The notes: generated from the sequence alone by a model not told the origin. A DNA stretch of 64,000 nt from a virus (IMGVR_UViG_3300020472_000017:248-64247); one strand, 5' to 3'; shown: positions 3,001 to 45,600, counted from the stretch's first letter. Made by a program: numbers and translations.

Positions 3001-6000
3001 TAGCACCATTAGTGAATGAATAAGCTGAATTAGGCTGGAATGCTAAGAACTGAGATTCTAAGTCATTCTCCAAGATATAGGAAACAGCAACACCATCAGT
3101 CTCAAATGAATGAGTACCAGTACCTTGACCAGTTAAATCAATTGCTTGGTTGTTAGTTGCGTTAGACTTAGTAGTAGCAAGCTTAACATTGTTATCATCT
3201 ACCTTTATAACGAAGTACTTGGTGTTAGTTGAAAGGCCACCAATTGCAGTAGTGCCTTGTGTATATGTTAATCCATCACCATCATTTGAACCATGACCTG
3301 TAATAGTAATGGTCTCAGTACCTGTATTGACACTTGCAGGTGCTACGCTGAATGTTGTAGCAGTTGTTTGAATTGCAATGTCACCAGATTTTGCATCCTC
3401 AATAGCAAGTCTCTCTGCTTCAGATGTAACAGAGGTGATATTAAATGGACGTAAAGCAGGTATCTGATCAATGTTAATCTTACCTGAAGACGTTAACTGA
3501 ACCAGTGCAGATGGAACTGCGTTTGTTGAATATGGCTGGTTGAGGTATGGTCCTAGATTGTTTGAAATATAATCTTTAACTGATGCCTGAGTAGGTAGTA
3601 ATGCATCAGATGCGAATGTACCACCAAGAGTATCAGCGTCAGAGAAACCTGTAATCGTGATGTCACCACCAACGATCTTAATAGATGATAGTTCAGAGAT
3701 ACTAACAGTACCAACGAAACTAATGTTACCTGTTCTGTTGTAGATAGTAACGAAATTACCAACCTTGAAGTCACCAAATTCGTTAGTACCTGAGGTGTAA
3801 ACCTGACCGAAGGATTGTTCAGATGCTTCGTATGCAGTACCTAAACCAAATCCACCGTTCTGTGGTAGAGCAGCATAGGTGTTACCAGATCCAGCGTATT
3901 CCCAAGTATGAGCAGATGAGTTAACAACAGATGGTCTGTGGAATTTAATTGATTTACCTACAAGACCGCCTAGGTTACCATCAGCATATCTGTAACGAGT
4001 GTTAGGACTTGCATCTAGCGTGTAGTCCATCGACCTGTTGGTCGTGATCTTAGCAACAATCTGAGTTCCTGGAGAACCACTAACAACCTCAGTTTCAAGA
4101 ATGATGTGCTCAACAGCAGGATCAGTAGGTGATACATCACCAATTCTAATGATATAGTCTTCAGTAGGAATCTGTGTTAGAGCTGTACCACTAACCTGAA
4201 TGACCTGTCTTCCAGATTCAACTTGGTTACCATCAACATCATTAGTAATACTGTCAATGACACCAATGTCAAAGCTGTATGGGTCTGCTCTAAATCCACT
4301 TGCACGTAAAGCATATGTACCAAAGTTAGAAGCAGAGTTGGTTATGGATGCATATCCACCAGACTGGCAAACAACACCATCTTGACAGAAGATAGCGAAC
4401 ACAGAAACGACCTGTGTATATCCATCGTTAGTAATATTATATGCAGTACCACCAAAGGAAATGATAGTGAATGCGTTTGCAACCATCGACTTACCTTGTG
4501 GGTCGAATTGTGCAATGGTGTTACCTTGTCCGTCTAGCTTAAGACCAGGACGAGGTACGTTTGGTGTAGCGCACTTAGCACCGTCAATATCACAACCAGA
4601 ACCTCCAAGGAATGAAATAACAGAAGAGTTCTGAATGAATGGAGATGCCTCAATAACAGGCAAGTCTAAGAAGATATTGAGTAGTGGGAATGAGAACTTA
4701 GCAGCACCCTGTTCAGTAATAACTGGATCAGGATCTGTAACAGTACCGCTATATGCAGTGGCACTTGATAGAACATTGTCCAGAATACCCCAATTGGTAG
4801 TGAGTGCAGAGATTACGTTAGCACACTCAGGTGCACTTGAATCTACTGTAATAGATCCATTAGAAACAGGAGCAATCTTCGAGAAGAACCCTGGTTCAAG
4901 ACTATTTCTTATTGCTTTGATTGATAACTCTTTAGCATATGCAAAAATTGCACGAGTATAATCAACCTCTTGAGTAACATGAGATATTGCACCACTACTA
5001 ATGTATAGGTTAGCAGCTTCAACTATCTTGGAGTTACCAGTATAACGAAGGTCGAATTGGAATGCTTTAACGATGTGAAGAATGTCATCAATACACTGTT
5101 GATCTCCAGGTGAAATCGTTCTTGTTGCTGGAAGACTACCATAGCCACCTGCAGAGGTTCCTAGGGCAGTTGTAACAGTGGTAAAGAATGTTGTAACCGC
5201 AGATGCTACATCAGTACATGTAGGTGTAGTAGCTGCTGTATCTGTAGCATGTGTAAGACTATCTGTATTGATTGCTTGTTCTACAATTGAGAACAATGTA
5301 TCAATTGATGATTTAACTGATGTACATCCACCAGGTTCTACTGTAATTGTAAGATCCTTAGTCTGATCAATACCATGCCAACCCTTAACGTTGACTGTTT
5401 CGTTAGCAGCAACCTGTTGAGCAATTTCACTTGCCATCTCAAAGACAGCACGAGCTTGGAATTCTTCTCCATCTACATGAGGAGTTCCAACAAAGTATCC
5501 TGCATGATCGTATACAGCATCATTACCACCATTGGTTAAGTTGTATGCTACTGCTCTTAGAACGTCAGAAGCATCATCCTTACAATCTTGATTGTGATTA
5601 GGAATTGTAAATCCAGGATCAGCAATTGGGTCTGTTGATCTTGGATAGCTGCTAGTGCCACCACCACCATGAGTACAACTCAACTGTAGTGATTCTATTG
5701 CAATCTTAACTGTAGAAGTTGCATAACTAACAGAATCGGCAGCAGCAGATACAAATGTATGTGCTGTAGTATTAGTAGAAGGTATAGTAGTTAATACTAA
5801 TACATCAAAAGTATTTGCAGTTACATTGGCAATACTAATCCACTTATCGCTAATTGGGTCAGTTGATCTTGGGTAAGAATGGTTACCACCACCATGAGTA
5901 CATGTGAAGGTAAATGCATTATCTGCTAGCTTGACCCTATCACCAGGCTTAAATCCATGGTTATTAATAGTAACTGTAAGAATACCAGTATTCGGATCAT

Positions 6001-9000
6001 ACGCACCGTCAATCGGAGTGTGCGTAGTTGGAGCAGTGAGTTCATTGGATCCAACCGTTAATACAAGAGCACCTGTTGCGGGATCGTATGTTCCTGCAGA
6101 AGGTACGTAATTATTAATTGTAGAAGAAGTTGATCTCTTAACACCATTAGTTGTTGAAGATACCCATGTGTGTGCATAGTTACCACCAGTGATAACTGAG
6201 TTATTCAACGCAGACTGATAGGTATGTGTTGTAGTGTTAGAAGAAATACCAACATCAAGAGTTACTGTAGTTCCAGTTGTAGCTACAATAGGAATTGAAG
6301 TATTATATGACTTGTCACGTTTCTGCTGAATACCATTAGCAGTAGCAGATATGAATGTATGAGCATCAGTGTTGGTTGAAGGAAGTGCATCAAGAACTTG
6401 TAGATCAAATGTAGTTGAAGTTACGTTGAATACCTTCTGCCACTGATTATAGATTGGGTCTGTTGCTCTTGGATAAGACTTATTAACTTGACCACCACCG
6501 CCAAATCCACAACTAAATGTGATAGAATTCTCTGCAAACTTAACCCAGTCACCGTTTCTCATTCCATGAGCAGCGGTTGTGGTGATCTTCATAATACCCG
6601 TTGTTGGGTTATATGTTGTACCAGCACCAGCAGTATGTGAATCAACTACAGCTCTTGGATAAGCGTGTTCTGTAGATCCACCATCCTCATCACACTTGAA
6701 TGTAATAGCACCTGTTGTTAGTTTTACATGCTCTTTAACATGCTTCAGACTATTAGCAGTTGCAGATACAAATGTATGAGCGTCACTAACTGATAGTGCA
6801 ACACCACCAGTACAATCAAAGTCAAATGTATTTGCAGTTACGTTCCATATATTAACATACTTACCGTCAATTGGTTGACCTGCTTTTGGATAAGACTCAT
6901 TACCACCGCCACCATATCCACAGCTCATCTGGATAGTACCAGTAGCAATGTTAATCTTGTCTCCCTCTTGGAAACCGTGATCAGTGACAGTAACAGTCAT
7001 CACACCAGTGGTGACATTCAATGCAGCACCAGAGACCGTATGACTAGTAGGAGCCGAAAGATTGTGATTACCAATAGTAACTTCTACAAGACCCGTTGCA
7101 GGGGTGTATACAGCGTTTGTAGGAGTGAACGTAACAGGAGGAGTAGTACCTACGTTAATATCGAAAGAATTCTGTGTAACATTAGTAACACTCTTCCAAA
7201 CATTAAGAGCTGGATCAGTCGATCTTGGATATGTGTGCTTGGAGAAATTATCATCCATAGCACAAGTAAAGGTCAATGAATCCTGTGCGACCTGTACTTT
7301 CTCACCAGCGGTAAATCCGTGGTTAGGAATTGTAAGAGTTAAGACACCTGTAATTGGTTCATATGTAGCACCAGTTACAGTATGCTTCGTGAAACCTGTG
7401 TCATTATAAACGACTGCTCTTGTAACACAATTGCTAACTGAAGATACCCAAGTATGTGGAGTAACATCAGTATTTGCTTTACCAACATTAACTTTAATAT
7501 TATTTGCGTCTACTCTTCTAACACCCATCCACTTATTGTAGAATGGGTCGGTTGTACGAGGATAATCTTTCTGTGTGGCATTACTGTCTAGTCCACAAGT
7601 AAACTTCAATCCATCAGCTGCGATCTGAAGTCTGTCCCCATCTACAAATGGGTGACTTGCAATGGTAAGAACCATTTCACCTGTAATAGGATCATACTTA
7701 GCACCAGTTGGAGTAAACTGATATGCGGATACACCTTGGAATGTATGAGCAGTTGTGTTTGTTGGAGTAGTACCGTTTAAAGCATTGATAGTAATATCAT
7801 TGCCAGATACTGCTTCAACTGGTACATCAGTCAAGCTAGAGATGAAACGCTCAACTGCTTCTTCTGAAATAAACTTATTATTAGTATTAAGTAGATTTGC
7901 AGCATCCTGAGTTAAGTTAGGAACAGTTCCATACGTACCCCTATCTAAAGTAATAGTCTCATATTGCTGAGCTGCAGTACTATGAGGATGTCTTAGGATT
8001 GGCAGATTACGGATAACCTTTAATGCATAATCCTTTGCATAGTTAAATGCTTCTACATACCTATCTTGATTACTTGTAGTTACCTGAGTGATGAAGTAGT
8101 TACAAGCATCATATACTCTGTCATTACCACCCCATTTAAGGTTGTGATATAAGGACTTCTGAAGGAAGTCAGTAATATCATCAGTACAATTTGAAGTATT
8201 GCCAGGAACGTTATATCCACCATTAGCAGCAAGCATTCTCTTAACTGCTACCTCAGATATCAACTCAGCGTTGTGAGCGAGAAGATCTGCAGCATCAGCT
8301 TGCTTATTATTAGCTGGGAAACTATTTGGAGTTCTATATGGTTTCCTTATATCAGTGAATGTACCATCTGTTCCAGTGGTAGCATTACTAACAATATTTT
8401 CACCAATTTCTAATATAAAAGTTCTATGGTCAACAATATCACTAACAGCCCACTTACCATTGATACCAGCAGTTCCACTACCAGCAATCGTTACATTAGC
8501 AGCAACACCAACATTAACTGTAATTGATGAAGCAGCATCTACAGCGGTAATTGCAGTTGCTGTATTATATACTGGATCACTAGATCTTGGATATGTGTGA
8601 GATGTTTGATGATTATCTCTCGAACATGTAAAGCTTAATTTTCCTGCACCAATTGTTACAGTATCAGCAGTTGTGAAGGTATGAGCACCAATGGTCATTA
8701 CCAACTCACCTGTTACTGAATTGTATGTGGCTGCAGTTACATCCTTCTGAACACTACCAGCAGTTATTGTGATAGCATTGGATGAAGTACCACCATTATA
8801 GGTGTGAGTATGATTTCTAAATCCTCTGAAGAGGTTGTGTCCTGTATTAACTTTAACTGTAAGTTTGTTATAGTTAACAGTCCAACTATCAATTGGATGA
8901 GCAAATGTATCACCTAATGCATTAAATGTAGTAGACCCAATTGTTAAATTGCTTGCTCTAGTAGCAGAATTTTCATGATATGATTTGACATATCCATATG

Positions 9001-30638: not shown

Positions 30639-30646
30639 TATTTATA
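30639..30646 (-). promoter_or_regulatory. T4-type late promoter TATAAATA
   Basis: Exact match overlapping the gp7 stop codon, 20 nt before the gp8 ATG. Confidence 0.8.
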
Positions 30647-33600
30647 ATGATCTCAGACGAACTTCTGGCAGAAGCGAGACGTTTCCGCTAGTTGTGCGCG
30701 AGAATGGATATTGAACTGTGAATGTAGTTGTGTTGGTGACTGTTACCTTGTAAGTACCATCAAAACCATCACCAGTGGTGTGATCTAAGTAAAACTCCAT
30801 TCCAGTAACTAAATTGTGAGCACTTGCTGTAGTAACCGTACATGTTGTACCACTGGAAGTATATGTGCCAGTTAATATTGTATGAGCATGTGCGGTGGTT
30901 CCACCATACCCTCTACCGCCTGTTGCGACCGTAAGAGTATTTCCAGATGTGTTCTTAGCACCATATAGAATTCTTTCTACTGTCCACACACTGTTTGCAC
31001 TACTATAGAATGGGATAAGAACCTCACCTTCGTCAGGGAATCCATTCTTCTGTGAAACATCATACCAGACATTCGTTAAGTTTAAGGTAGTACCTACAGC
31101 TGTAACTGTTGTAGTCAAGTAAGCATTAGCAAGCATATTAGAATCAGAGATCAATCTGTTTCTTTGCTTCCTCTCAATATGTAGTGGATGAGTTGGGAGA
31201 ACAGTTGGGACAGTAGTGTAATTATTACCACCTTGTAGGTTAATAACACTAAGTACCTTACCACTTCCAGCTTCAATAGTTGTCTCAGCAAATGCACCTT
31301 CTCCACCCCCACCTTGGAAGAGTAGGATAGGTGGATTTTCATAATTAGATCCAGGACTGGTTATAGCAACCTGAGTAATCTTTCCATTAACTAATGTAGC
31401 ATTAAACTCAGCAGGAGTTGGTCTCAATCCAGTATATTCATAACTGTCAATAGAAGTAGAGCTGGAAACTGTCGCAATTAAACGATCTGTACCTTCACTA
31501 GCAACTTGAAGTCTATCACCAGGATCAATAGAGTTAAATGTCTTACTGACAAGAACGTCATCAGAAGATCCAGTAAAGATAAACGCAGTACATTGTGATC
31601 CTGCTCTTGGAGCTTCACTGAATTCAATAATAGATCCTCTTAAGTCATATGCAACTCCAGGTTCCTGGAATACACCATTTAAGAAGATGACCAAGTTATT
31701 TGATGCAATAACAGCAGCATTATCACTTTCCAGTGAAATTGGTTCATTATCTTGCTTCATAGTAAATGTTAACTTTGCATTATCAAAGTAAGGTGCAAGA
31801 TCATCAATTAATGACATCTTACCAAAGTAGAACCCATAGAAGTCCATACCAGGTATAGGTGCCTCATTAAAGGTTATTGTGCTACCAGTATATGTGTAAG
31901 AATCTGTACTACCCTTAACCTGTAAAGTGCTATTCAAGAATAGTAAGAAGTTATCAGATGCAGGTAGTGTCTGAGTAGAACCATCAACCTGAGCTGTGAA
32001 TGTTGTATCTGTACCATCAAAGTTTACTGTACCGACTTTAATCTGGAAGTCAGGAGCACCTGAAGCAGTTCTAGTAACACTATTAAGGTTTCCAGTTGAT
32101 CCAACATTACAAGTAATAGTTGTACCAGTTACAGCAGTAATCGGTATAGCAGTATTGTATACAGGGTCAGTTGTACGTGGATAGGTGTGTGAAGTAGCAT
32201 TACTATCCAAACTACAAGTAAATGATAGCTTATCAGCACCAATCGTAACGGTATCGGAGGTTGTAAAGGAATGAGCACCAATAGTCATTTCCAAGATACC
32301 AGTATCAGGACTATAAGTTGCAGCAGTTACATCCTTCTGGACACTACCAGCAGTTATTGTAATAGCATTAGATGAGGTTCCACCGTTATAAATGTGTGCT
32401 CCTGAACCAACTGCAGTAGTAACAATATTAAAGAGCGTTGTGATAGTAGATGCAACATCTTGACAATCATTAGTATCATAAACTGTATTTCCACTATCAT
32501 TAGTGATAGTTAGATCCCTAACTTGAGTGCCCTGAGTAAATGTATTAGTTGTAACTACAATGTTACGCATTACCTCACGACAAATATCTCTAGCATGATT
32601 AAAGACTTCAACAGTCTCACCTTCCTCTCCTTCTACATGAACAGTACCAACATAGTAGACAGCAGCATCGTAGGTAGCATCATTTCCACCAAATTCAACG
32701 TTATCTGCAACAGCATCTACAATAAGTTTTGTATCACGAATACATTTCGCATAACTTGGAACTGTGAATGATGGATTATTAACCTTCATTCTTCCATATG
32801 CAGTTGTTGCAATAAATCCAAGGTTGGTTCTAATTAAACTTCCAGCATCAGCAAGCTTATCGTAAGCATATACACCAGTAGATACAATTGCTCGTTCTAC
32901 TGCAGTTGCAGTTGCAGATACAAACGCATGTCTGTCACCTGCTTTAATAGCACCAGCATTAGAAGTAATGAATTTATGAGTATAGTTACCACCAGCAATA
33001 ACTGAATTAGCAAGTGCAGAATGGAACTTATGCTTGTATGTGCTAGTAGACTGAGCAGTATTCAGAACATCAACAAAGATAGAATCGCTTGTTGTAGAAG
33101 TAATCTCTAAAGAAGCATCATAAAATGGATCAACTTTCTTCTTAATGGGTAGGATAGTAATACTATCAGTAACTGCTCCAACAAATGTATGAACTGTTGT
33201 ATTAGTAGAAGGTGCCTTAGTTAATACCTGAATATCAAATGTATTGTAAGTAACGTTAGAAACAGGAATAGCATTACCGCTAATAGGATCCTTATGAACA
33301 ATACCATTAGCAGCTGCAGCAACTACCTTATGAGTTGTTACATTAGTAGAAGGAACTGTATCAAGAACCTTAACCTCAAAACTATTCAATCTCTTATTGA
33401 AGATCTTCAACCACTTACCACTTACAGGGTCAGTAGAGCGAGGATATGAGTGTTGTCCAGCACCTTGAGTACACTCAAGTGTTATAGCACTATCATTGAA
33501 CTTAATCCAATCACCATTACTCATACCGTGATTAGTAGTAGTCTCAATCTTAAGAATACCTGTCTCAGGATAATAATGTGAACCACCCCTCATTAGAGCA

Positions 33601-36600
33601 GCACTTGCTGTACCACCAGTCCATGTATGTGCATAAGCACCACCAGAAATAATAGCATTGGTTCCAACAGATCCAGGCTTCCATCTATGTAATGATTGAT
33701 CTGGAGATACACCAACATTTAATGTTATAGTTGTATCAGATACAGCAGTAATAGTTACTGCAGTGTCATATGCAGGGTCTGAAGAACGTGGATATGTGTG
33801 GTCAGTTCCATAATTGTCTTTAGCACACTGGAATGTTAGTGAATTTGCAGTGAATTTAACAGTTTCGCCCACAAAGAAGTCATGAGCACCAATTTCTAAC
33901 TCAAGTGAACCACCTGCAGGATCATAAGTACCATCTGTTGCAGTGTAATTAACAATAGGTGACTTACCAACAAATATAGTAGCTGTAGTTCCAGTTACTG
34001 CTGTAACTGCCATATCTTTACCGAAGTATGGATCAGTTGCTCTAGGATAAGACTTAGTAGCAGTATTTCCATCCATTGCACATGTAAACTTCAATGAATT
34101 AGGTGCAACTCTAGCTACAGAGGATGCACGACTAATACCAGTGGCAGTACATGATACAAATGTATGTGTATCATTAGTTGTTGCAGGGATCTTATCAAGA
34201 ACCTGAACATCAAATGTATCAGTTGTTGTATTGAATATTTGTATCCACTTACCACTTACAGGATCAGTTGCTCTAGGATAAGTATTTGTTCCAGAACTTA
34301 CTCCAACATTAACACTAAGAGTATCTGCAGTATTTGCAGTAATTGCTAAAGCTGTGTTATATGCAGGGTCTGTTGTACGTGGATAATAATGAGCAGTTTG
34401 ATGACTATCCTTAGTACAAGTAAATCCAATAGAATTAGCAGCAATCGTAATAGTATTGGAAGTTGTTAAGTTGTGAGCAGCAGATGTCGTTAAGTTTAAC
34501 GTTCCATTTACAGGATTGTAAGAAGCAGAAGTTATATTATGCTGAGTGGAAGTATTATCTGTAAATGCATTAGTAACAGTACCACTAACATATAGATGAG
34601 AACCAGCTCCACGATCACAAGTGAAGTTCAATGCATTGTCATCAATCTTAATCAAATCTCCATCATCCCATCCATGTCCAGCAACAGTAAGTGTCATAAC
34701 ACCTGTTGATGGAATATATGTACCAGCGGTTGCTTGATGAGTTGAAGGAGCAGTAAATGCATGAGATCCACAAGTCAATTCTGCAAGACCTGTAGCAGCA
34801 TCAAATGTACCAGTGGTTACATCATAAGAATTAGTAGGAATAGCAGCAGTAAATGTATCCTGAGAAGCTCTTGGATACTTATGAGTACCTAAACCTTGAG
34901 TACAACTGAATGAGAATGCCTCATCAGCAACTCTAATATGATCACCATTTACTAATCCATGACCTACTTGTACACATCCAGTAGTTGCATTCTGGAAGGT
35001 ATGTGTAACAGCATGACTAATAGCACCTTGTCCACCGTTAGCATTAACAGTAATTGTATTAGAAGTTACTGCTGTAATTGCAATATCAACGTTGTATAAG
35101 TAATCTGCACCATTACCAGTATTAGCACCTGTGGCACGAGGATATGTCTTAGTCTGTGTCTGACTATTGTACTCACAACTAAAGGATAATGAGTTTGCGT
35201 CTAATCTAATAGTATCCAGTGTGGTTAATGTATGAGTACCAATTTGTAGTACTAAGTCACCACTATTCCCATCATAAGTCGCAGATGAGACATTAAATCT
35301 TTCATTCTGTATAGTCATTACACCCGTAGTTGGGTCGTAATCTGCAAAATGAGGTGATAACTTACTGTTACTTACAAATGAATGAGGATCAGTGTTAGTG
35401 GAAGGTATATCATCAAGAACAGTGACATCAAAAGCATTAGTTTGGACATTAGAGATCTTTAACCATCTATCGTATGCATAATCAGTGGATCTTGGGTATT
35501 GCTTCTTAGCTGTATTACCATCAAGGTTACAAGTCATTGTTAGTGACTTCTCCTTAATCTTAATCCAGTCATTATTTACAAATCCATGAGCAGGAGATGT
35601 AATTGTCATTACACCATTGTTAGGATTGTAATCTACACCAGTAACTTCAAATCCTTCTGTAGATGTTCTAGGATAGCTTGTGACAGTTTGATGATTGTTC
35701 TTATCACAACTGAATGAAACAGCACCATCAGAAAGTTTAATACTTTGACCAGCAGATAGGTTATGAGCACCTATAACTAACTCCATAACACCCGTAGTTG
35801 GTTCGTATAAGGCGTTAGAAGGTGTATAAGTCTTAAGAGGTGTCTTACCAACGTTAACTGTAATACTATCGCTTGTAATAGCAGATACAGCAAGTGCAGA
35901 TTTATAAGCAGGATCAGATTTTCTAGGATAAGTATGCTGAGTAGCCCTCTTATCCATCTCACAAGTAAAGATTAATCCATTTTCATCAATGGTTATTGTA
36001 TCTTGTGCTACTGTGAGACAATCGGCATCAATAGATGAGAATGAGTGAGTGTAGTTACCACCACTTTGAACTGCGTTAGATGCAGTACCACCATTCCAAG
36101 TATGTGGGGTGATGTCAGTAGTCGCTCCCTGTCCACCATTTACATTGACCGTGATGGTGTCAGTAGTTGTTGCTGTAATAGCAATTGCAGTATCATAGGC
36201 ATAGTCTGCGCCTCCTGCGGCGGCTGATCCAGAAGCCCTAGGATATGTCTTATCAGTCGAATAATTGTCACCTTGATAGTTACACCTGAATGTTAATGAA
36301 TTAGCAGCGATCTTAATACTTTCGCCAGTAACTAATCCATGATCTTTAATAGTTAGTGCTAAATCACCTGTAGTTGGATTATATGTTGCATTTGTTACAT
36401 CATGGTTAACTACTAGAGATGCACCAATTTGAACATCAAATGTATTGGCCTGTACGTTGAATACCTCAACAAACTTACCACTGAAAGGATCAGTTGTTCT
36501 TGGATAAGACTTAACAGAAGTATTACCATCCATTAAGCAAGTAAGCTTAACAGCACCATCAGCAATCTTAACTCTATCTCCACTCTTAAGAGTATGACCA

Positions 36601-39600
36601 TTTAAAGTCAAAGTCATTACTCCAGTAGCAGGAACATATGCTGCACTAGTTGGAGAAAGGGTAGTTGGAGCTAATAATGGATGAGCTCCGATTGTTAATG
36701 ATAAATCACCAGTTGCTGCGTTATATGTTGAAGCAGTAGGTGTATATTCTTGTCTTATACCTGTACCAACGTTAACCTTGAAGGAATCTGTAGTTACAGA
36801 GTAAATTGTTAGGAAAGCTCCAGCAGCAGGGTCTGAAGAGCGAGGGTAAGTATGATTAGTAGCATTGTTGTCCTTAGAACAAGTAAATGTTAGTGAATTG
36901 TCAGTAAACTTGATTCTATCACCATTATCCATTCCATGAGCAGCAGCTGTTATCATCATCTCACCTGTTGCTGCGGTATAAACAACCGAAGTAGGTTGGA
37001 ACTGATAAGTACTTAATCCTTGGAAGGTATGAGTAGTAGTATTAGTTGCAGCAGTACCATTAAGTGCATTAACTGTAATAGTAGTACCAGTTACAGCATC
37101 AACAGGAATATCAGATAGATTTCCATGTGGATCTGTTGATCTTGGGTAAGTATGATTACCAGCAGCTTCAGTACAACTGAATATTAGGGCATTGTTAGCA
37201 ATTCTAATGTATGACCTAGCATGTTTAATTGCATCAGTTACAGCAGAAGAGAATGTATGAACTGTAGTATTAGTAGATGGAACAGTATCTAATACTTGTA
37301 CACTGAATGTATTAGCAGATACATCAAATATTGGGATCCACTTACTGCTAACAGGGTCAGTAGCACGAGGATATGCATGAGTACCACCACCTTGAGTACA
37401 AGTGAATACGATTGCACTATCGTCAAACTTAACCTTCTCACCATTCTGGAATCCATGATTAGCAATGGTAACAACCATTATGCCAGTCCAAGGATCGTAA
37501 GTAGCAGCAGTAGCAGTATGATCTGTAGGTGCCAACAGTGTATGTGACCCAATAGTCATCTCTAGTACACCTGTACTAGGTGCATATGCTGCTGCAGAAG
37601 GTGCGTAGTTGTTAGTTAGGGATGAACCTACCTCAGATAAACCCAAAACATCATCCTGGGTATATCCATTACCAGCCTGACTTAGTACAACATTAGTTAC
37701 CTTCTGTCCACTAACTGTAATATCAGCAGTAGCACCAGAACCAGAACCTAATCTATTCTTAAGGGGAACTCCTGTATATGTACCATCCGTATATCCATAT
37801 CCACCAGTTAATCCATTAGCTACATCAAAGGTCTTAATTTCATCTCCAATCTGATCTAACTGGAAACTACTTGTATATGATGCACGATCATAGTACATCA
37901 CAAGGATAGTGGTTCCAGAAAGTAAAGGACTATTAAAGGTTAGAATATCATTGGCAAAGGTATAATTTGCAGGATTTTGTACAATACCATTGGCAATAAC
38001 AAATAATTGATCCTTATCTGGAGTTTTGCCAAGCTTTGTGGTAAGTCCTGTACCATCACTACGCATTCTAAATTGGGTATTAGTGCCATCAACAGAGACT
38101 CTAAGTGTATGTCCAACTCCAGAACCAATAGCACTTATACCAATTGCAGGTCCACCAGGGATTTCTCTAACTTCAATAGTGTTTGCATCAACTACTTTAA
38201 CGTAATATCCACCAGCATTAGTTAATCCACCAATAGCAGTTCCAGTTCTTACTTGAGGATAGTTTCCTACATCTGGATTAGGTAATGTTGAAGGATTATC
38301 AATACCATCAGCAATAATCTTTGCAAGTGTTGTAATGGCACTTGTGACAGTTGCACAACCGTCTGAAGGTGCAGTAATACTTAAATCTTTTATAGGAGCT
38401 AACGTAGTATATGTACCAATAGGTAGGTTGTTGACTACAGCAAGGTTACATAAGTCTCTTGCCTTATTAAATGCAAATATAGTTTCAGTCTCTTCCCCAA
38501 CAACATGCTTAAGGTAATTTGATGGGTTAGTTCTAGTTACGGAAGCAAGGCTATTAGAAGAAAGAGCAGTAGTAATAATGTCAAAGAGAGTGTCCATTGC
38601 AGAAGAGACACTAGCACATGTAGCAGCAATGTAAGTAGGTGAAGTATTAGTGACTTGAGTAAGACCGTGATTTCCTTGAACAGTGATTGCCTCATTAATG
38701 ATTACCTTAGCAGCCAGTTCCTTACACTTATTGAAACACCATATCGCTTGTGTCTCTTCACCATCAACAGGAGCAGGATTAGAGTATACGCCATCAACAT
38801 AGAAGTTTCCAGCATCCCATGTCTCACTATTGCCACCATAACGCAAGTTATATGCAATAGCTTCCATTGCATCAACTAAGTCATCAATACAATTATCATT
38901 ATGACCTGGAATACCTGGATAACCACTTGGAACACCTACAGTAGGATCTAATAACATCAAATACACTGCTTCTTCAGCAATGAACTTCATGTTGTCCTTA
39001 ATTAGGTTAGCAGCATCAATATGAGCATTACTTAGTGAAACTACTCCACCAACATATGCATTAGTAGCATCTAATGTGAACCAGTTACCACCATACCTTA
39101 AGTCATTTGCCCAAGCAGCTAATACTAGTCTTATATCTCTAGCACATGTAGTTGAGTTGTATGTAAGACTTGGATATGAAGCATTTAGTGATCCAATTGT
39201 CTCTTCAATGATATAATCAATGTTTGAGATGATTAAATCTCTAGCATCTTGGAATCTATCTCCACCAGCGTTATAAACCATACGCTGATTGTCAACTAAT
39301 CCATGATTAGTTAATGTAATTTGATTATTAGCAGTACTTACTATACTTGAGGATGATCCATCAAATGTAATAGACTTATCACTAACATCATCTATCTTAT
39401 AAGAAATACAAGATAATATCTTCTGAATATCTAATAACTGTCTACCATAAACCTGAACCTCAGTTGGAACTGCAGCTGTATAATCTGCTTTACCTAAAGC
39501 AAAGTTCTGAATCTGAGAAAGTTTACCAGTTGCCTTTGCAGATGGCTTAGGAATTACGTAAGTAGTACCATTAAAGGTAGTTCCTAGACTATTAGTTCCA

Positions 39601-42600
39601 GAAACCCACCAATCGTAGCTATTACCAGCACTTAAGTTAAGTGAAGACTTTGCTCTATAATCCTTAAGACTTGCTTGTGATAGTACTTGTGTACCAACTA
39701 CTTTGAAACCTGCAGGGTGAGCAGCATACTTAAGTGGGTTCTTCCAATCATTAATATTAATGGATGAAGAGATATCATATGAGAATTCCTGATACCTATC
39801 ACTGTCATATAGTCTCTGTTCGTTAAGATCTAAGAAACCAGTGGTTCTTTCCCACTTAGTTGCAGAAATACTAATTGGTGAAACTTCAAATACAGCATCT
39901 GCTCTAGTGAATGTATGAATCTGACCAAATGCAGCAGTCTCTTCACCAAATACAGGTTCTCCAATCTTAAACTCACCTTCTACTATCTCTACACTAACAA
40001 CACGTCCAGAAGCATCCCAATTCTTAACATAACCATATGCAGTATATGAAGTACTAGATGCACCCTGATAAATCCTTTCTCCAACAGAGAAAGTAGCAGG
40101 CTTCATGTATGCAGTGATGTTATCGCCAAGATCAGTAGTTTCTAATGTAAAGTATGTCTGTCCTGTTAGTTGATCACCCACTGGATTACCAGTAAATGCT
40201 ATAAAGGTTCCAAGATTAGCATTTGCAAGACTAGATGCAAGTTGAATTTGATTATCTGCTAATGCAGTATTCTTTTCTCTAGATATCGCATAATAGGTTG
40301 TGTCAACAACTAATGGTGTTGGGAATTGTCCTGTAATCTCTTTAAGAGTTACTTCTGTACCATTTGGGATTTTTGTATTATATGGGAAGTTTAATGTACT
40401 ACTTGACTTTAATCCAACCCAAGTATGAGTTACCTTAGCTTTTACAGTAGGTGCAGATAAGAAACCTCTACCAGCCTTAATTACCTCTATTGACTGTATA
40501 ACCTCATTTTCCAATAATGCCTTCAATTCATAGAGTGATCCACTTCCACCTTCAAGAACAACCTCAGGTGTAGAAACAAAGTTAGCTCCACCATTAATAA
40601 CATCAAAATAGTCAATAACTTGAGTTCTTGTTAATTGTAAGTTATATGTTGTGTTTAACTCTGGTTTTAGGGTTCTATCGTGAGAATAGTTAAATGTGAT
40701 ATTATCTCCACCGATTTTCAGTATTTTGCCCAAATCGGAAGATTTAAGTAGTATAGAAGCTCCAGAACCTGTTTTTTGCGTAATATTGACTACAGGAGCA
40801 CTTTGGAACTGTATTCCAGCATTTTCGATGTTAATCTGGTTTACACCTTCATTTAAGATGGTTGAATTGAATTTTGAGTTAATTCCATTACCACCACTAA
40901 CAGTAATGTTTGGTGATGACAAATAACCAGATCCAGTGTTTGTAACTGTAATTGTATCAACAGAAGCGTCTAATAACGTCGAAATAGTTGCTGGATCAGC
41001 ATGTGCCAATGTAGTAACTGTAATAGTGAAATCTTCATTTCCAGCACCACCAGGAAGCTTTGTACCATCAAAAGTGATTACATCACCTAATGAGTATCCA
41101 GTACCGCCAGTTGTGCAAGTAACCGTTGCAATTGCACCATTACCATCTGTAACAACTGTAAATTCAGCATTTACTCCATTAACGGGAGCAACACTTGTTT
41201 GAGTTACTCCAGTAGTTGTTGTATCTGGAGTAAAGGCATTTGCAACAGATTCATTGATAGATCCGACTGTATCGACTGATCCATAGTAAGGATCATCAAA
41301 TATGATGGCTGGAGCAGCTCTATAGTTAGATCCAGGGTTAGTAACAGTAACACCAGTAAGTTGACCACCACCAGAAACAGCAGTAGCAACAATAGCTTGA
41401 ACTCCACTTATTGCAGTAATTGAAGCTTGTGAATCAGCACTGTATACATTGTTAGTAGCAGCAGTGCCAGTACTGAACATGATGTAACCTTTATTACCAG
41501 CACCAACTCTTTCGTTCTTGAGAGGTTTAACTCTTAATACTGAAGTAATTACATTCCAAGAGATGACTTGACCTCTAGCAGTTTGATTTCCTTGAGTTTC
41601 TTGTGAAATAATGACTTCATCCTTAATAAAGGCTCCAAGTACACCTGTAAGTGTTAAATCAACAAAATCAGGTAATGTTACAACTCCAGTTGGTAAAGAT
41701 GACTGATTATATCCAGATCCATCATTCGTAATGGAAACATTGGATAAAGTACCAGAAATAGTAGCAACTGCGGTTGCACCAGATCCAGATCTAGTGGATC
41801 CAGTCAATTTTGGAAGAGATGAGTAATTTCTTCCAGTATCACCGATAGAGATGGTTGCAATACCACCCTCAGGGTAAATTGAGTTTGTAGTGTAGCTGAT
41901 ACCCGTACTATACCCAATTTCAGGTTCTAGAACAGTTATGTACTTATATGTCTTATCTGTCTTCTCACTAACGGTCTGTGTCCCTACAACAGGGTCATTC
42001 ATAGCTGTAAAGTAACTTCCAGTTACAGTTCCTTCAATATCGAAATAATAGAAGATACCAGGAAGATCTTTAACGTAAATTGTAATAGAATCCTGATCTC
42101 CTGTAATTGGATCTTTTACTTCATCAGAAATATTCTTATAAGTGAAAATATCGGTATTTGCAGGATCTAACGTGAATGCAAGTGTTTTTCCAATATTACT
42201 TGTATCTGAAGTGTCGAACTTGTACTTATGACCCAAAATAAGTTGTAATTTGGGTTCTTTCACATAAACTTCAGCAGAAGCTGTATTAGCGGCTGCAATA
42301 GACGCAAAATTGCGTTTTACGGTAAATCTACGATTACTTTCAGTTCTAACAACTGAATAATCTGTTTTATTGTATCCAGCAGGAGAAACTCCCGAAATAT
42401 TAACAATATCGCCAATTCCAACCTGATGTGCAAGGCTTGAATGGATTTGAGCTTCAATTTCAACTTCAGTTAATGTAATAGTGAATCCTGATCCTGCAGG
42501 ACTTAATGCATTACCTAGATTGACATTAGCAGCAGTAATAGTGTCACCGACATCATAAGAGGTTCCTACACTTGTAATAGTCACTGAAGTAACTGCATTA

Positions 42601-45600
42601 CCAGAAACAACAATAGTTGCCTTACCACCAGTACCAGAGCCGTTACTTGTTAGGGGAACTTGCTCATAAGTGCCATTTGCGTAATTACTTCCTCCAGTAA
42701 TACTTGACCAACCACCTTGGTATAAATTACCGTCTGTACGCTTTCTAATATAGGTCCAATTCATTGAACCATCAGTTACAGTACCAGATTCATGAGTTGG
42801 AGCTGAAGAACTAGAAGTTCCACTTGCAGCTGCCTTATAAACCCTATCTTGAGTGAAAATAAGGTCTCCTTGAGTATATGCAGTAGTATTAGCGTATTCT
42901 GTCAACAACTTCATTGTTGAAGCATTGAAATACTTAAAGTGATACTTTGAACCAATGATCTTTGTATCAATTACTCTAGTATAAAGATTATCAGTCAAAC
43001 TAACAGTAACATTCTCTCCAACTTGCAAATAGTGATTTTCTAGAGTGGTTATTGTTGTTGTACAGATGTCATCAGTGGCACCTACAGCATTTGCAAGAGT
43101 ACTGACTGTTCCACCAGCAACAGCTGATACAATAGCACTAATTCCTTCTCCACCAGTGTCTGTATTATCAAATGTTAGTCTATCATTGACTTTATACTCT
43201 TTACCGCCACCTTCAACTAGATATTGGTCAACTCCAGAGGAAGAATACTTATTAGTCGCGGAAACAACCAATGAATCCGCAGTACCACCTCTAATAACTG
43301 GATAATAACTGAAATACCCAATTCCATCTTCAAGGTAGCTTAATACTTCACCAGTTTCCATCACAATCAATGTTGTGGTGTCTTCAAGTGCTAAGAAGAA
43401 GTCAATCTTGTTGTCAAGCTTCTTTCTCTTTGCTACAATGTTATCAACACCGATAAATGGTGCTTTATAGCGAATTGCGTCTTCTGTAAAGTTTTTCTGC
43501 AGACCATTTCCATTCCAGTTAACAGCATCCGCTTCTGAGTAGAAATTTGGTCCTATAAAGTACGGGAATTTGGGTTCTCCAGCAGAACCCTTAATTGTAG
43601 CGAAATATGCATAAACTCCATTTGGATATTCTGGAGTAACGCAGAAACGACCGTTATATTGGTCTAAATCACCATATCCTTCTCTATATTCATAATCTTC
43701 AATATAAGTGCCCATAGGGTCTGTCAGACCGTTTAGAAGAGCATCTCTAGATGACTTAACAAGGTAACTAGAGACCATCAACTTAAATGAATTATAAGGA
43801 GTGGTATTTTCAGGATCCTCAAATCCATATGGTCCATAAATTGGATGTCCATCATAAGCCCAACCAATAATAGGAGAGTGTGAGGTTGGATTTAATTCTT
43901 GTAGGGTGTCATCAATATTATCTCTTAAGAGGAACCTAAGTTGCTTAGGGTTATACAGATATCCATATTCTCCGTCATATATCAAGTAGTTTTCTCCTTG
44001 GAAAACTCCACCACCTGCAGTATCAGTAGTTTTACGTGCTACGAAAGTATTTGAACCCAATTCTGCGCCAGTTGCTGCTTCGTTAAAGCTCAATTCCGTT
44101 AACTTAGTTTGGAATGAAGCTCCTGTACCTGGATATACAATACTAATCGATGTATTACCTGCGCTATATCCCGCGCCCTTGTTTGTTACAATAATACCAG
44201 TAACAATATTGGTAGCAAGGTCTACTTGAGCAAATGCAGTAGCACCAACTCCATCTCCAGTAATAACAACGTCTGGAGCACCATAATACCCACTACCACC
44301 GAATGTTACGATAACACTTTCGATCTTTCCGTTTAAAATGGAAGGATACGCAACAGCACCACTACCAGAGATTAACTTAATAGTGGGTTCGTAAGTATAT
44401 TGAGTTCCAGCATTAGTGATATTGATAGTATTGATTGGTCCTCGACAAATAGAGGTAGCAGTAGCACCTGTGCCATTTCCTCCACTTATAGAAACACTAG
44501 GAACACTAGTATAACCAGTACCTCCATTAGTTACAGTAATTCCAGTAACAATACCTGATGTGATCTGAGCAGTAGCAGTTGCCTGATTGTCATTACCAGC
44601 TCCACCACCAGTAATCGATATAATTGGTTCTGTTGTATACCCACTACCACCATTAGTAACGTTAATAGCAATTACTGAACCTAAAACGGAAACTGTTGCC
44701 GCGGCTGGTGTACCTTCATACTCCCAAGTGATAGCACCTATAGTTGCAGTCCCAGTAGTATGTGTTGGGTAAGCAGTATTTGATGAAAGACCACTATCAA
44801 TAGCTCTATACCTATTACCATTATATTTTACTCTAACACCTGAAGAATAAACTGTATTGAGCTTATAATCTTCTTCAAACTCTACTGTAGGTGGGTTTGT
44901 GATATCATATCCATCTCCACCCGCATTTTTATCAATAGCTTTCAATCCACCAAACTTCTTCTTGGTTTCTCCCTTATATGAGAATATTGGAACACCATTT
45001 GAACCAATACCAATTTGACCAACTGGAGTAGCTGTTTTTGTACTTTTAGTAGATGGTGTAAGAGGTATTCTCTTAAGATATCTCTGGTTACCAGGAGTTA
45101 GGTCACCAACAGCAAATGGACCTATTTTATGCGATGGTACACCTGTACTAGCGACAATAGCATCTTTAGATGATTTGTAGGTATTCTGAACGTCTGCAGT
45201 ATAATCCTTGATTGAATTGTTAATAGAAGCGTAATCACTGACACCATATGCAAATTCTCTAGAAATAAAGAATTCAAATCCACTAATACCTTGAGCTGGT
45301 GTAGATGAGAATAAAAATTCAAATTCCGTATCAGAAACAATACCAACAACATCATGAAGATTATTGTAGATGTCTTCTGGAGCATTTAGAACTCTAATGA
45401 CATCATCTCGCTTCAAACGATGCTTTTCTTTAGTCTTAACGGTACAACGAACACTTCCATTAGGATTAACAGTTCCTAGGGTCGCAGATTCGCCTCTGAG
45501 TGCCCTTCTGACGTTATATTGGAAAGTTTCCCATATTGGGTCAATACTATCAAATCCTGGTGCTATAGGGGTCGTAACCTTACTGTTGGGAAGGTAATAC

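What the first reader, a model, noticed from the sequence alone, without database searches (positions are those of the whole stretch)
32890..37626. Recursive (Russian-doll) repeat: modules inserted inside modules and closed last-in-first-out, implying a branched protein
The 15 YPR modules are not simple tandem repeats. Many open (YxPxTG...H..AP, ...FTC, ...YPR or ...NVG), are interrupted by complete further copies, and are finished much later. Example 1: the module at ~34800 opens, contains one at ~34720 that is itself split between FTCDRGAGS and GTNTYPR by a third, then resumes ARVAPNSLKFTC...YPR at ~34100. Example 2: YPR copies 7 (~35670) and 10 (~34870) lack the DP half. Their orphan halves appear in reverse order at the array end (KDPISG ~33285, then VDPFYD ~33130), followed by two more closing strands (GGNYTHKF, GDRHAFVSA). 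This parses like balanced brackets, at least five and perhaps seven levels deep. The same nesting occurs in the fibre array. Domains grafted into loops of other domains would build a tree-like structure on the baseplate rather than a linear stalk. I know no description of this architecture, but could not search.
Basis: partly seen in the sequence, partly recalled or inferred. Interest (0 to 1): 0.88.

Follow-up and report, generated by a model that had tools for sequence, protein, structure and literature searches.

The report
Nested beta-barrels in cyanophage baseplate protein
A 5,417-residue baseplate protein of a marine cyanophage carries 15 copies of a small beta-barrel domain, six of which are split open and hold further copies inside them up to five deep, a rare domain-within-domain build so far described mainly for cyanobacterial RNA polymerase.

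Summary
Residues 3097-4670 of one 5,417-aa ORF (window 30642-46895, minus strand; a gp7-type baseplate wedge protein) hold 15 'YPR' modules of about 95 aa. Nine are contiguous. Six are split into pieces whose profile coordinates are complementary and which close last-in-first-out, with 0 parse errors (4 of 5,000 shuffles do as well).

Orthologues show these are true insertions. The same module is contiguous in one phage and interrupted by whole modules in another; the 525-aa block inside module 9 is absent in two orthologues.

AlphaFold2 models (pLDDT 88.9 and 77.3) reunite the distant halves. Single-barrel PDB domains of about 75 residues align across model ranges 39..248, 11..303 and 1..948. 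The fold is the six-stranded barrel of the E1 FCCH domain and the sialic-acid-binding barrel of phage endosialidases.

Depth is five. The proposed sixth and seventh levels are not supported.

The architecture is not unprecedented: a six-level nest of a different fold is described for the cyanobacterial RNA polymerase Si3 region. I found no description for phage structural proteins. This scan noted the same thing earlier in another cyanophage genome.

No coordinates were available, so the three-dimensional shape is unknown. Function (multivalent glycan binding) is inferred.

The parts
30642..46895 (-). Whole ORF, 5,417 aa (P0001): gp7-type baseplate wedge protein
   Evidence: phrog_2885 baseplate wedge subunit matches aa 25-589 (E = 0). 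It is flanked by a phrog_219 (gp6-like) and a phrog_438 (gp8-like) ORF. Relatives are annotated gp7 in P-SSM2, P-SSM4 and S-SSM7.
37524..37607 (-). M1 opening hairpin (a), aa 3097-3124
   Evidence: HMM positions 3-23. Rejoined with aa 3227-3296 it is 68% identical to the contiguous stretch P0046:3095-3190.
37218..37523 (-). M2, complete module inserted in M1 (socket 1), aa 3125-3226
   Evidence: HMM 2-97, 122.5 bits.
37008..37217 (-). M1 remainder (b, c, d, e), aa 3227-3296
   Evidence: HMM 28-95.
36744..37007 (-). M3, complete top-level module, aa 3297-3384
   Evidence: HMM 2-85, 113.4 bits.
36660..36743 (-). M4 opening hairpin, aa 3385-3412
   Evidence: HMM 2-23.
36030..36659 (-). M5 and M6, two complete modules inserted in M4 (socket 1), aa 3413-3622
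   Evidence: HMM 2-95 and 2-97. Orthologues P0004, P0008 and P0013 have only one module here.
35826..36029 (-). M4 remainder (b, c, d), aa 3623-3690
   Evidence: HMM 25-84.
35637..35825 (-). M7 first half (a, b, c to YPR), aa 3691-3753; outermost host of the deep nest
   Evidence: HMM 3-55. Conserved in the 19 aligned sequences (query plus 18 orthologues). In AF2 model B, PDB barrels align over model 1..948.
35352..35636 (-). M8, complete module, first child of M7, aa 3754-3848
   Evidence: HMM 2-96, 127.2 bits.
35283..35351 (-). M9 opening strand (a), aa 3849-3871
   Evidence: Token A, 11.1 bits. Conserved YxPTTGVMT in orthologues.
34974..35282 (-). M10, complete module inserted in M9 (socket 1), aa 3872-3974
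   Evidence: HMM 2-98. It is itself split by a further whole module in P0003/4/5/8/9/24.
34863..34973 (-). M9 core (b, c to YPR), aa 3975-4011
   Evidence: Token B, 26.6 bits. In P0083 and P0089 it is followed directly by its DP tail.
34743..34826 (-). M11 opening hairpin, aa 4024-4051
   Evidence: Token A. pLDDT is 92-95 in model A. PDB barrels align over model 11..303.
34596..34742 (-). M12 first half (a, b, start of the C...YPR loop), aa 4052-4100
   Evidence: HMM 2-51. PDB barrels align over model A 39..248.
34293..34595 (-). M13, complete module at depth 5 (socket 2 of M12), aa 4101-4201
   Evidence: HMM 2-82. Absent in P0004/5/8/9/13/14. Forms a barrel at model A 86..190.
34125..34292 (-). 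M12 second half (GTNTYPR, DP tail, HTF strand), aa 4202-4257
   Evidence: HMM 47-96. Rejoined M12 is 73% identical, with 0 gaps, to the contiguous P0008:4046-4148.
33948..34124 (-). M11 remainder (b, c, d), aa 4258-4316
   Evidence: HMM 30-81.
33294..33947 (-). M14 and M15, complete modules, further children of M9, aa 4317-4534
   Evidence: HMM 2-97 and 5-97. M15 is split by a whole module in P0004/5/9.
33135..33293 (-). M9 closing half (DP tail and HTF strand), aa 4535-4587
   Evidence: HMM 56-97. Contiguous with M9's YPR in P0083/P0089. Its three strands fall in 10-residue blocks with mean pLDDT 86-92 in model B.
33006..33134 (-). M7 closing half (DP tail and HKF strand), aa 4588-4630
   Evidence: HMM 55-97. 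Strand pLDDT is 80 and 63. PDB barrels align over model B 1..948.
32886..33005 (-). Conserved hairpin extension (GGNYTHKF, GDRHAFVSA), aa 4631-4670; not a closing of further modules
   Evidence: Invariant residues in the 19 aligned sequences. pLDDT 25-36. The same motif follows the complete modules M6 and M14.
32076..32333 (-). M16, lone complete module downstream of a helical region, aa 4855-4940
   Evidence: HMM 2-91, 109.8 bits.

Best explanation
The region encodes a recursively nested array of one small beta-barrel domain. Each module is about 95 aa: Y-x-P-x-T-G hairpin, H-G-x-x-x-G-D strand pair, F-T-C, a loop, H-x-Y-P-R, and a D-P tail with one or two closing strands.

Each barrel has three permissive loops ('sockets'):
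- after the opening hairpin (HMM position ~24)
- inside the Cys-to-YPR loop (~45-51)
- between YPR and DP (55/56)

Whole further copies of the same barrel, singly or as short tandem runs, have been inserted in frame into these sockets, and into the sockets of the inserted copies.

The chain topology is therefore a tree: M1[M2], M3, M4[M5,M6], M7[M8, M9[M10 | M11[M12[M13]], M14, M15]]. There are four modules at top level and the maximum depth is five.

Each interrupted barrel is completed when the chain returns, so the entry and exit of every inserted subtree lie side by side on its host.

Shown: the sequence grammar, the insertion and deletion of whole modules between orthologues, and AlphaFold2 models that reunite the halves.

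Inferred:
- The array decorates the periphery of the baseplate on a gp7-type wedge protein.
- The barrels act as multivalent binding modules for host surface glycans. Their best structural matches include the polysialic-acid-binding barrel of phage endosialidases.
- The sockets let phage lineages add or drop modules without breaking the main chain.
For: Grammar:
- HMM fragments are complementary.
- Tokens number 16 A, 16 B and 16 D, with 0 parse errors and depth 5; 4 of 5,000 shuffles do as well.
- Across 270 relatives there are 1,539 full modules, 576 N-fragments and 567 C-fragments. Break points cluster at three positions.

Rejoined halves each give one full-length HMM hit of 71-114 bits, and each has natural contiguous counterparts at 48-73% identity.

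Orthologues:
- The M9 YPR is directly followed by its DP tail in P0083 and P0089, so the 525-aa block is an insertion.
- The P0018 type has a single nested module there.
- M13 is absent in six orthologues.
- M10 and M15 carry an extra inserted module in others.
- The M7 opening and closing halves are conserved in all, while the content between them ranges from about 310 to about 955 aa.

Pairing:
- The nearest contiguous relatives of the M9 core have tails like the M9 tail (49 vs a mean of 30 bits). Those of M7 have tails like the M7 tail.
- Family-wide, last-in-first-out pairing beats crossed pairing in 38 of 51 nested pairs.

Structure:
- Model A (aa 4012-4320) has pLDDT 88.9 and pTM 0.68; the orphan hairpin has pLDDT 92-95.
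- phi92 endosialidase 4hiz_A (Z 8.1, rmsd 2.0, 77 aligned) and the E1 FCCH domains (Z 7.4-7.5) map to model 39..248. Other chains map to 86..190 and 11..303.
- Model B (aa 3688-4672) has pLDDT 77.3 and pTM 0.58. FNR-type and ATP-synthase barrels map to model 1..948 with 66-74 aligned residues and rmsd 2.9-3.2.

Context: gp6-like and gp8-like neighbours and a gp7-core PHROG match.

Function lead: the endoNF barrel holds a polysialic acid site (PMC12632334).
Against: - No coordinates or PAE were returned. Contact between distant halves is inferred from the first and last aligned residue, the aligned length and the rmsd of fold matches.
- The Z scores for M7 (4.2-5.4) and M11 (3.4-4.0) are modest.
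- Model B rests on only 19 sequences, and the gap pattern of that alignment itself favours the nested reading.
- For M7 no orthologue with a contiguous version was found. The HMM score does not separate the M7/M9 pairing from the crossed one (188.3 vs 188.2 bits).
- Many relatives parse with 1-10 errors. These are probably missed weak tokens, but that is unproven.
- Nothing here shows virion location, copy number, oligomeric state or any binding activity.
Confidence: 0.88

Rival explanations
1. Linear beads: an ordinary tandem array in which some copies are truncated or degenerate. The 'orphan' pieces fold locally or are disordered linkers, and the bracket order is coincidence.
For: Modules are only 30-45% identical to one another and the DNA repeats are old (60-78% identity), so decay of copies is plausible. 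Several relatives do not parse perfectly.
Against: - Fragment coordinates are exactly complementary and balanced: 16/16/16 here, 576 vs 567 family-wide.
- Only 0.08% of shuffles parse.
- The orphan pieces are among the best-conserved columns in orthologues.
- Host modules are contiguous in other phages.
- Orphan strands are modelled with pLDDT 80-95 and align as parts of single barrels.
Confidence: 0.03
2. The halves are real but are completed differently. One option is crossed (first-in-first-out) pairing or strand swapping between neighbouring modules. The other is pairing in trans between copies of the protein in the baseplate, giving an interlocked mesh rather than a tree within one chain.
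For: The HMM score of the crossed M7/M9 pairing equals that of the nested pairing. In 13 of 51 nested pairs in relatives the crossed pairing scores higher. The oligomeric state is unknown, and gp7-type proteins sit in a sixfold baseplate (general knowledge of T4).
Against: - M9's core and tail are one contiguous stretch in P0083 and P0089, which fixes that pairing and leaves the last tail for M7.
- Subfamily similarity favours nested pairing by 15 bits here.
- The monomer AF2 models close M7, M11 and M12 in cis.
- Crossed pairing would thread chains through one another.
Confidence: 0.05
3. The nest is deeper, at six or seven levels. In this reading the strands GGNYTHKF and GDRHAFVSA at the end close two further modules opened upstream of the array.
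For: These strands are invariant in the 19 aligned sequences and resemble the closing HxF strand. Their low pLDDT could mean that their partner lies outside the modelled stretch.
Against: The A/B/D parse is balanced without them, and no unclosed opening exists upstream. The same HxW...GGxYxHxF motif follows the complete modules M6 (aa 3597-3620) and M14 (aa 4403-4439), where it is modelled locally with block-mean pLDDT 65-83.
Confidence: 0.06

Closest known systems
Si3 insertion of cyanobacterial RNA polymerase beta' (RpoC2): recursively inserted sandwich-barrel hybrid / HABAS domains
   Same: One small beta domain family acts as both host and guest. The pattern A1-B1-C-B2-A2 is repeated recursively, and some nodes hold several children. 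A 2026 survey of 2.7 million classified domains (48,551 insertion events) reports eight domains in a six-level nest in Prochlorococcus RpoC2 as its most complex case (PMC13114784; see also PMC11515920).
   Different: The fold differs: 8emb_B Si3 aligns only at Z 3.4 over 42 residues. The setting differs too: a phage virion protein rather than a cellular enzyme's trigger loop. Here there are 15 modules, three insertion sockets per barrel, and a nest content that varies between close orthologues.
Beta-barrel domain of phage endosialidases (phi92 4hiz_A aa 256-340; K1F endoNF 1v0e/3gvk/3ju4 aa 424-508)
   Same: This is the best structural match: Z 7.0-8.2, rmsd 2.0-2.4 A, 77-82 aligned residues. 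It is a small barrel in a phage host-recognition protein. In endoNF it holds one of three polysialic acid binding sites (PMC12632334).
   Different: Sequence identity is only 14-17%. It is a single copy beside a beta-propeller, with no self-nesting and no YPR/FTC motifs. Glycan binding of the cyanophage barrels is untested.
E1 FCCH domain (Pfam PF16190) of ubiquitin-activating enzymes
   Same: It has the same barrel: Z 6.3-7.8, rmsd 2.6-3.0, 72-80 aligned residues. It shares the H-G-x-x-x-G-D-x-V-x-F motif. From general knowledge, not checked here, it is itself an inserted domain in its host enzyme. Pfam flags PF16190 on some relatives.
   Different: The hit on this protein is below Pfam's cut-off (22.7 vs 29.5 bits). 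There is no E1 context and no catalytic cysteine role.
T4 gp7 baseplate wedge protein and cyanophage 'gp7' giants (P-SSM2, P-SSM4, S-SSM7)
   Same: It has an N-terminal gp7-type core (phrog_2885) and the gene order gp6-like, gp7-like, gp8-like. The annotated gp7 genes of cultured cyanophages match the array at 26-35% identity.
   Different: T4 gp7 (about 1,000 aa, from general knowledge) has no such array. No close relative is among the cultured phage records (all matches under 60% identity).

Membership tests
gp7-type baseplate wedge protein (T4-like cyanomyophages) | Homology of the N-terminal core to the gp7 family | tested here: met
   phrog_2885 'baseplate wedge subunit' matches aa 25-589 (positions 2-570 of the profile), E = 0, 1321 bits.
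gp7-type baseplate wedge protein (T4-like cyanomyophages) | Synteny between gp6-like and gp8-like wedge genes | tested here: met
   Upstream ORF 46903-48756 is phrog_219 (E 2e-192). Downstream ORF 29104-30618 is phrog_438 (E 2e-168). Both are baseplate wedge subunits.
gp7-type baseplate wedge protein (T4-like cyanomyophages) | Physical presence in the baseplate | not testable with these tools
   No proteome or structure is available for this phage.
E1_FCCH (PF16190) / endosialidase-type six-stranded barrel | Pfam gathering score reached | tested here: not met
   22.7 bits against a cut-off of 29.5, with one short stretch at aa 4445-4467. Some relatives carry a precomputed PF16190 hit.
E1_FCCH (PF16190) / endosialidase-type six-stranded barrel | Same fold in three dimensions | tested here: met
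   In the predicted models, 4hiz_A scores Z 8.1-8.2 with rmsd 2.0-2.2. 4p22_B, 9mc4_A and 9qgg_B score Z 7.4-7.8. EndoNF entries score Z 7.0-7.6. These Z values are in the range the tool calls middling.
Recursively nested domain-insertion array (as in RpoC2 Si3) | The host domain's sequence is interrupted by a complete copy of a domain, with both host parts present | tested here: met
   Complementary HMM fragments lie around full modules. The parse is balanced.
Recursively nested domain-insertion array (as in RpoC2 Si3) | The interruption is an evolutionary insertion: uninterrupted versions of the host exist | tested here: met
   M9 is contiguous in P0083 and P0089. M12 is contiguous in six orthologues. 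M1 is contiguous in P0013, P0046, P0052 and P0055. No contiguous orthologue was found for M7, M4 or M11.
Recursively nested domain-insertion array (as in RpoC2 Si3) | Host halves reunite into one folded domain | tested here: met
   This rests on AlphaFold2 prediction only. Barrels align over 39..248, 11..303 (model A) and 1..948 (model B) with 58-79 aligned residues and rmsd 2.0-3.4. There is no experimental structure.
Recursively nested domain-insertion array (as in RpoC2 Si3) | Inserted domains themselves host insertions (depth of 3 or more) | tested here: met
   M7 > M9 > M11 > M12 > M13, depth 5.
Recursively nested domain-insertion array (as in RpoC2 Si3) | Homology to the SBHM/HABAS domains of Si3 | tested here: not met
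   8emb_B scores Z 3.4 over 42 aligned residues. No sequence hit. This is an analogue in architecture, not a relative.

The most novel reading that the evidence does not exclude
These barrels form a self-inserting 'plug-in' system specific to marine cyanophage baseplate and fibre giants. Each barrel offers three sockets. Recombination drops whole barrels or small subtrees into them. The resulting branched, doubly anchored clusters of glycan-binding barrels differ in topology between closely related phages and so tune adsorption and host range. This would be a mode of receptor-binding-protein evolution distinct from the usual swapping of terminal domains.
Probability: 0.3. Interest if true: 0.8.

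Novelty: new variant of a known kind. Interest (0 to 1): 0.66.

Why it matters
Nested insertion deeper than two or three levels is rare. A 2026 survey of 2.7 million classified domains cites six levels in cyanobacterial RNA polymerase as its most complex case (PMC13114784).

This is a second, unrelated fold that does the same thing. It occurs in a virion protein, and it is frequent across a family: 576 N-terminal and 567 C-terminal module fragments against 1,539 intact modules in 270 relatives.

Close orthologues differ by clean gain or loss of whole modules at three defined loops. That makes the family a natural experiment on three questions:
- how domain insertion arises
- which loops tolerate it
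- how a folding chain copes with halves up to 844 residues apart

For phage biology it changes how the multi-thousand-residue 'structural proteins' of cyanomyophages should be read. They are branched clusters, not long stalks. Domain-boundary and repeat-finding tools that assume contiguous units will mis-annotate them.

If the barrels bind host glycans, the nest topology may be a host-range determinant for the phages of Prochlorococcus and Synechococcus.

Tried and rejected
1. Searches with no usable match. Megablast of the region against phage records found nothing. A sequence search of PDB found nothing. Pfam gave only a sub-threshold E1_FCCH hit on the array.

2. Loop-length versus tail-motif subtype coupling, tried as a test of pairing. 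The association is too weak: short loop goes with an SG-type tail in 50% of cases against 27%. I replaced it with the nearest-neighbour test.

3. HMM scores of rejoined versus crossed M7/M9 halves do not discriminate (188.3 vs 188.2 bits).

4. A deeper alignment for the 985-aa model (A3, 53 rows). MAFFT scattered the partial rows over wrong modules, so the clean 19-row A2 was used instead.

5. No model files appear in the Python box. Contacts and PAE could therefore not be read, and fold-match ranges were used as a proxy.

6. DNA repeats are old (60-78% identity) and irregularly spaced, so there is no sign of recent duplication or of a mobile DNA element.

7. Literature searches for a description in cyanophage or phage fibre proteins found none. 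That library is incomplete.

8. The reading of the last two strands as extra closings is rejected; see the rival explanations.

Full report
WHAT IS THERE

The finding lies inside one uninterrupted ORF of 5,417 codons on the minus strand (window 30642-46895).
- Its first ~590 residues match the PHROG family of gp7-type baseplate wedge subunits (phrog_2885, E = 0).
- The ORF upstream is a gp6-type wedge subunit (phrog_219) and the ORF downstream a gp8-type wedge subunit (phrog_438).
- The array matches genes annotated 'gp7: baseplate wedge initiator' in Prochlorococcus and Synechococcus myophages P-SSM2, P-SSM4 and S-SSM7, at 26-35% identity.
- No near relative is in the cultured-phage collection.
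- Metagenomic proteins of 5,000-5,500 aa are 41-98% identical over the array.

The window is therefore from an uncultured T4-like marine cyanophage. The finding covers residues 3090-4669 of its gp7 homologue.

CHECKING THE OBSERVATION

To avoid reading the pattern in by eye, I aligned only the ten uninterrupted copies, built a 98-position profile and searched the protein.

Besides the full copies, the profile returns fragments whose profile coordinates are complementary:

| Host module | First piece (HMM) | Second piece (HMM) | What lies between |
|---|---|---|---|
| M1 | 3-23 | 28-95 | M2 |
| M4 | 2-23 | 25-84 | M5 and M6 |
| M12 | 2-51 | 47-96 | M13 |
| M11 | short opening hairpin | 30-81 | M12 |
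| M7 | 3-55 (aa 3693-3745) | 55-97 (aa 4588-4630) | 844 residues |
| M9 | core ending in YPR (aa 3983-4011) | 56-97 (aa 4536-4577) | 525 residues |

I then cut the profile into three sub-profiles: A (opening hairpin), B (core to YPR) and D (DP tail).
- The protein reads as 16 A, 16 B and 16 D tokens, with no stray hit elsewhere in the 5,417 residues.
- A stack parser accepts the string with zero errors at depth five.
- Only 4 of 5,000 shuffles of the 23 units do as well.

The order is beyond chance and the composition is exactly balanced. In 270 relatives the same profile finds 1,539 distinct full modules, 576 N-terminal fragments and 567 C-terminal fragments. Break points cluster at three places: profile positions ~24, ~45-51 and 55/56.

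The resulting tree is:

M1[M2], M3, M4[M5,M6], M7[M8, M9[M10 | M11[M12[M13]], M14, M15]]

A lone sixteenth module lies further downstream.

The fibre ORF in the same window (2..11854, minus strand) shows the same grammar to depth two.

ARE THE SPLITS REAL INSERTIONS?

An alignment of the query with 18 orthologues over aa 3688-4672 answers this directly.
- In P0083 and P0089 the core of M9 runs straight on into its tail (...TKTYPRST|DPISGKF...). The 525-residue block M11-M15 of this phage is simply absent.
- In eight other orthologues (the P0018 type) that socket holds a single module, which itself carries one insert.
- M13 is missing in six orthologues, leaving M12 contiguous. Rejoined M12 is 73% identical, without a gap, to P0008:4046-4148.
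- M1 is contiguous in P0013, P0046, P0052 and P0055: rejoined M1 is 61-68% identical over 98 residues.
- Conversely, M10 and M15, which are contiguous here, are each split by a whole extra module in other orthologues.
- The opening and closing halves of M7 are conserved in every orthologue, while the material between them ranges from about 310 to about 955 residues.

Rejoined halves each give one full-length profile hit of 71-114 bits, against 101-127 bits for natural contiguous copies.

WHICH HALF GOES WITH WHICH?

- For M9 the contiguous orthologues settle the pairing. That leaves the last tail for M7.
- Independently, the contiguous modules most similar to the M9 core have tails resembling the M9 tail (49 bits against a family mean of 30). 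Those most similar to the M7 core have tails resembling the M7 tail rather than the M9 tail.
- Over all nested pairs in the family, last-in-first-out pairing beats crossed pairing in 38 of 51 cases, or 29 of 42 sequence clusters.
- This test is noisy, and plain HMM scores do not discriminate.

STRUCTURE PREDICTION

Model A (aa 4012-4320, the three-level nest M11[M12[M13]], 67-row alignment) came out at mean pLDDT 88.9 and pTM 0.68. The 28-residue orphan hairpin of M11 has pLDDT 92-95.

Coordinates are not returned. The fold searches do report the first and last aligned model residue, the aligned length and the rmsd.
- Single barrels of 72-79 residues align over model 39..248, which is the two halves of M12 on either side of M13. 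Examples are phi92 endosialidase 4hiz_A (Z 8.1, rmsd 2.0, 77 aligned), the E1 FCCH domains (Z 7.4-7.5) and endoNF (Z 7.0-7.2, rmsd 2.1).
- Other chains align over 86..190, which is M13.
- The sialate-esterase and BT_3476 barrels align over 11..303, which is M11 (58-63 aligned, rmsd 3.1-3.4, Z 3.4-4.0).

Model B (aa 3688-4672, 19-row alignment) reached pLDDT 77.3 and pTM 0.58.
- The M9 tail strands fall in 10-residue blocks with mean pLDDT 86-92.
- The M7 tail strands have pLDDT 80 and 63.
- Four barrel chains align over model 1..948 with 66-74 aligned residues at rmsd 2.9-3.2: 2qtz_A, 1ddg_A and 6j7a_A (Z 5.2-5.4) and 6tdu_AC (Z 4.2).
- Two of these chains (1ddg_A, 6j7a_A) also matched M12 in model A with the same length and rmsd.

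In the model, therefore, the tail at aa 4588-4630 completes the barrel begun at aa 3691. The caveat is that it is a prediction guided by an alignment whose gaps already encode the insertions.

WHAT IS NOT SUPPORTED

- The parse is balanced without them.
- The same HxW...GGxYxHxF hairpin motif follows the complete modules M6 and M14. After M14 it is modelled locally with block-mean pLDDT 65-83.
- At the array end the strands have pLDDT 25-36.

They are invariant in orthologues, so they matter. Most likely they are a decoration of M7 that packs on something outside the modelled piece.

The statement that no such architecture is described is also not right. A 2026 survey reports a six-level recursive nest of hybrid-motif domains in the Si3 region of Prochlorococcus RpoC2 (PMC13114784; background in PMC11515920). 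The cyanophage barrel is not that fold (Z 3.4 to 8emb_B), so this is an independent instance.

I found no description of it for phage proteins.

Earlier notes of this scan report the same phenomenon in an 8,596-residue baseplate protein of another cyanophage. I did not test those notes. I reached the Si3 comparison before seeing them.

HOW IT PROBABLY WORKS

Shown:
- There is one barrel family with three permissive loops.
- Whole-module gain and loss occurs at those loops between orthologues.
- Halves reunite in prediction.

Inferred:
- Because each inserted subtree leaves and re-enters its host at one loop, the array is a branched cluster anchored at both ends of every branch, not a stalk. 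Its actual shape cannot be read from the outputs available.
- The best structural match is the endosialidase barrel, which holds a polysialic acid site in endoNF (PMC12632334). The protein also carries YHYH and CBM5/12-like segments upstream. Peripheral, multivalent binding of host surface glycans is therefore the most likely role.
- The sockets would let lineages change valency or specificity without disturbing the wedge core.
- The DNA copies are old (60-78% identity), so the insertions are not recent and no mobile element is involved.

VERDICT

The claims of seven levels and of no precedent are not supported.

I rate it a new variant of a known kind. It is striking and well supported. It is not unique, however, and its function and three-dimensional form remain untested.

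Noticed in passing
window 32886-33005 (aa 4631-4670): The strands GGNYTHKF and GDRHAFVSA after the last closing half are invariant in the 19 aligned sequences. Yet they are modelled at pLDDT 25-36. Their packing partner probably lies outside aa 3688-4672, perhaps in the helical region that follows.
   Followed up: partly
window 34851-34859 (aa 4013-4015) and 33294-33578 (M15): In the 985-aa model four PDB barrels align over model 325..850 (63-67 aligned residues, rmsd 2.5-3.6). This suggests the linker strand just after M9's YPR supplies the missing first strand of M15. That would zip together the entry and exit of the 525-aa inserted block.
   Followed up: no
window 2-11854 minus strand (fibre ORF, aa 1038-2090): The array reads ABD ABD ABD A[ABD]B[ABD]D A[ABD]B. 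One module carries two separate inserts. The last module lacks its DP tail, while an orphan tail-like piece (HMM 61-95) lies upstream at aa 1342-1376.
   Followed up: partly
window 34593-34619 and 34278-34292 (M12 loop either side of M13): At the Cys-to-YPR socket the host loop is partly duplicated. The N-side keeps C-x-x-G-x-G-x-H-x-Y and the C-side restarts with G-T-N-T-Y-P-R. The consensus of 67 homologues shows the same pattern (C.YG.G.HTY ... AYPR). It may be a footprint of the insertion event.
   Followed up: no
window 43590-43973 and 44793-44867 (aa 975-1102, 677-701): The N-terminal third of the same protein has a YHYH domain (PF14240, E 8e-28). It also has a sub-threshold CBM_5_12 carbohydrate-binding hit (24.5 bits against a cut-off of 26.2). 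Both are consistent with a surface-binding role.
   Followed up: no
window 32890-37626, all modules: Cys (FTC), His (HxYPR), YPR and DP are invariant or nearly so across 67 homologous nests. That was not examined here.
   Followed up: no
window 38000-39300 and 32400-32900 (aa ~2560-2960 and 4670-4830): Helical repeats of the type ...RDxxLxxxAxxxNLxxGGN... flank the region on both sides. They match PHROG tail-fibre families 4527 and 5342. Whether the whole barrel array is itself an insert in a helical domain was not tested.
   Followed up: no
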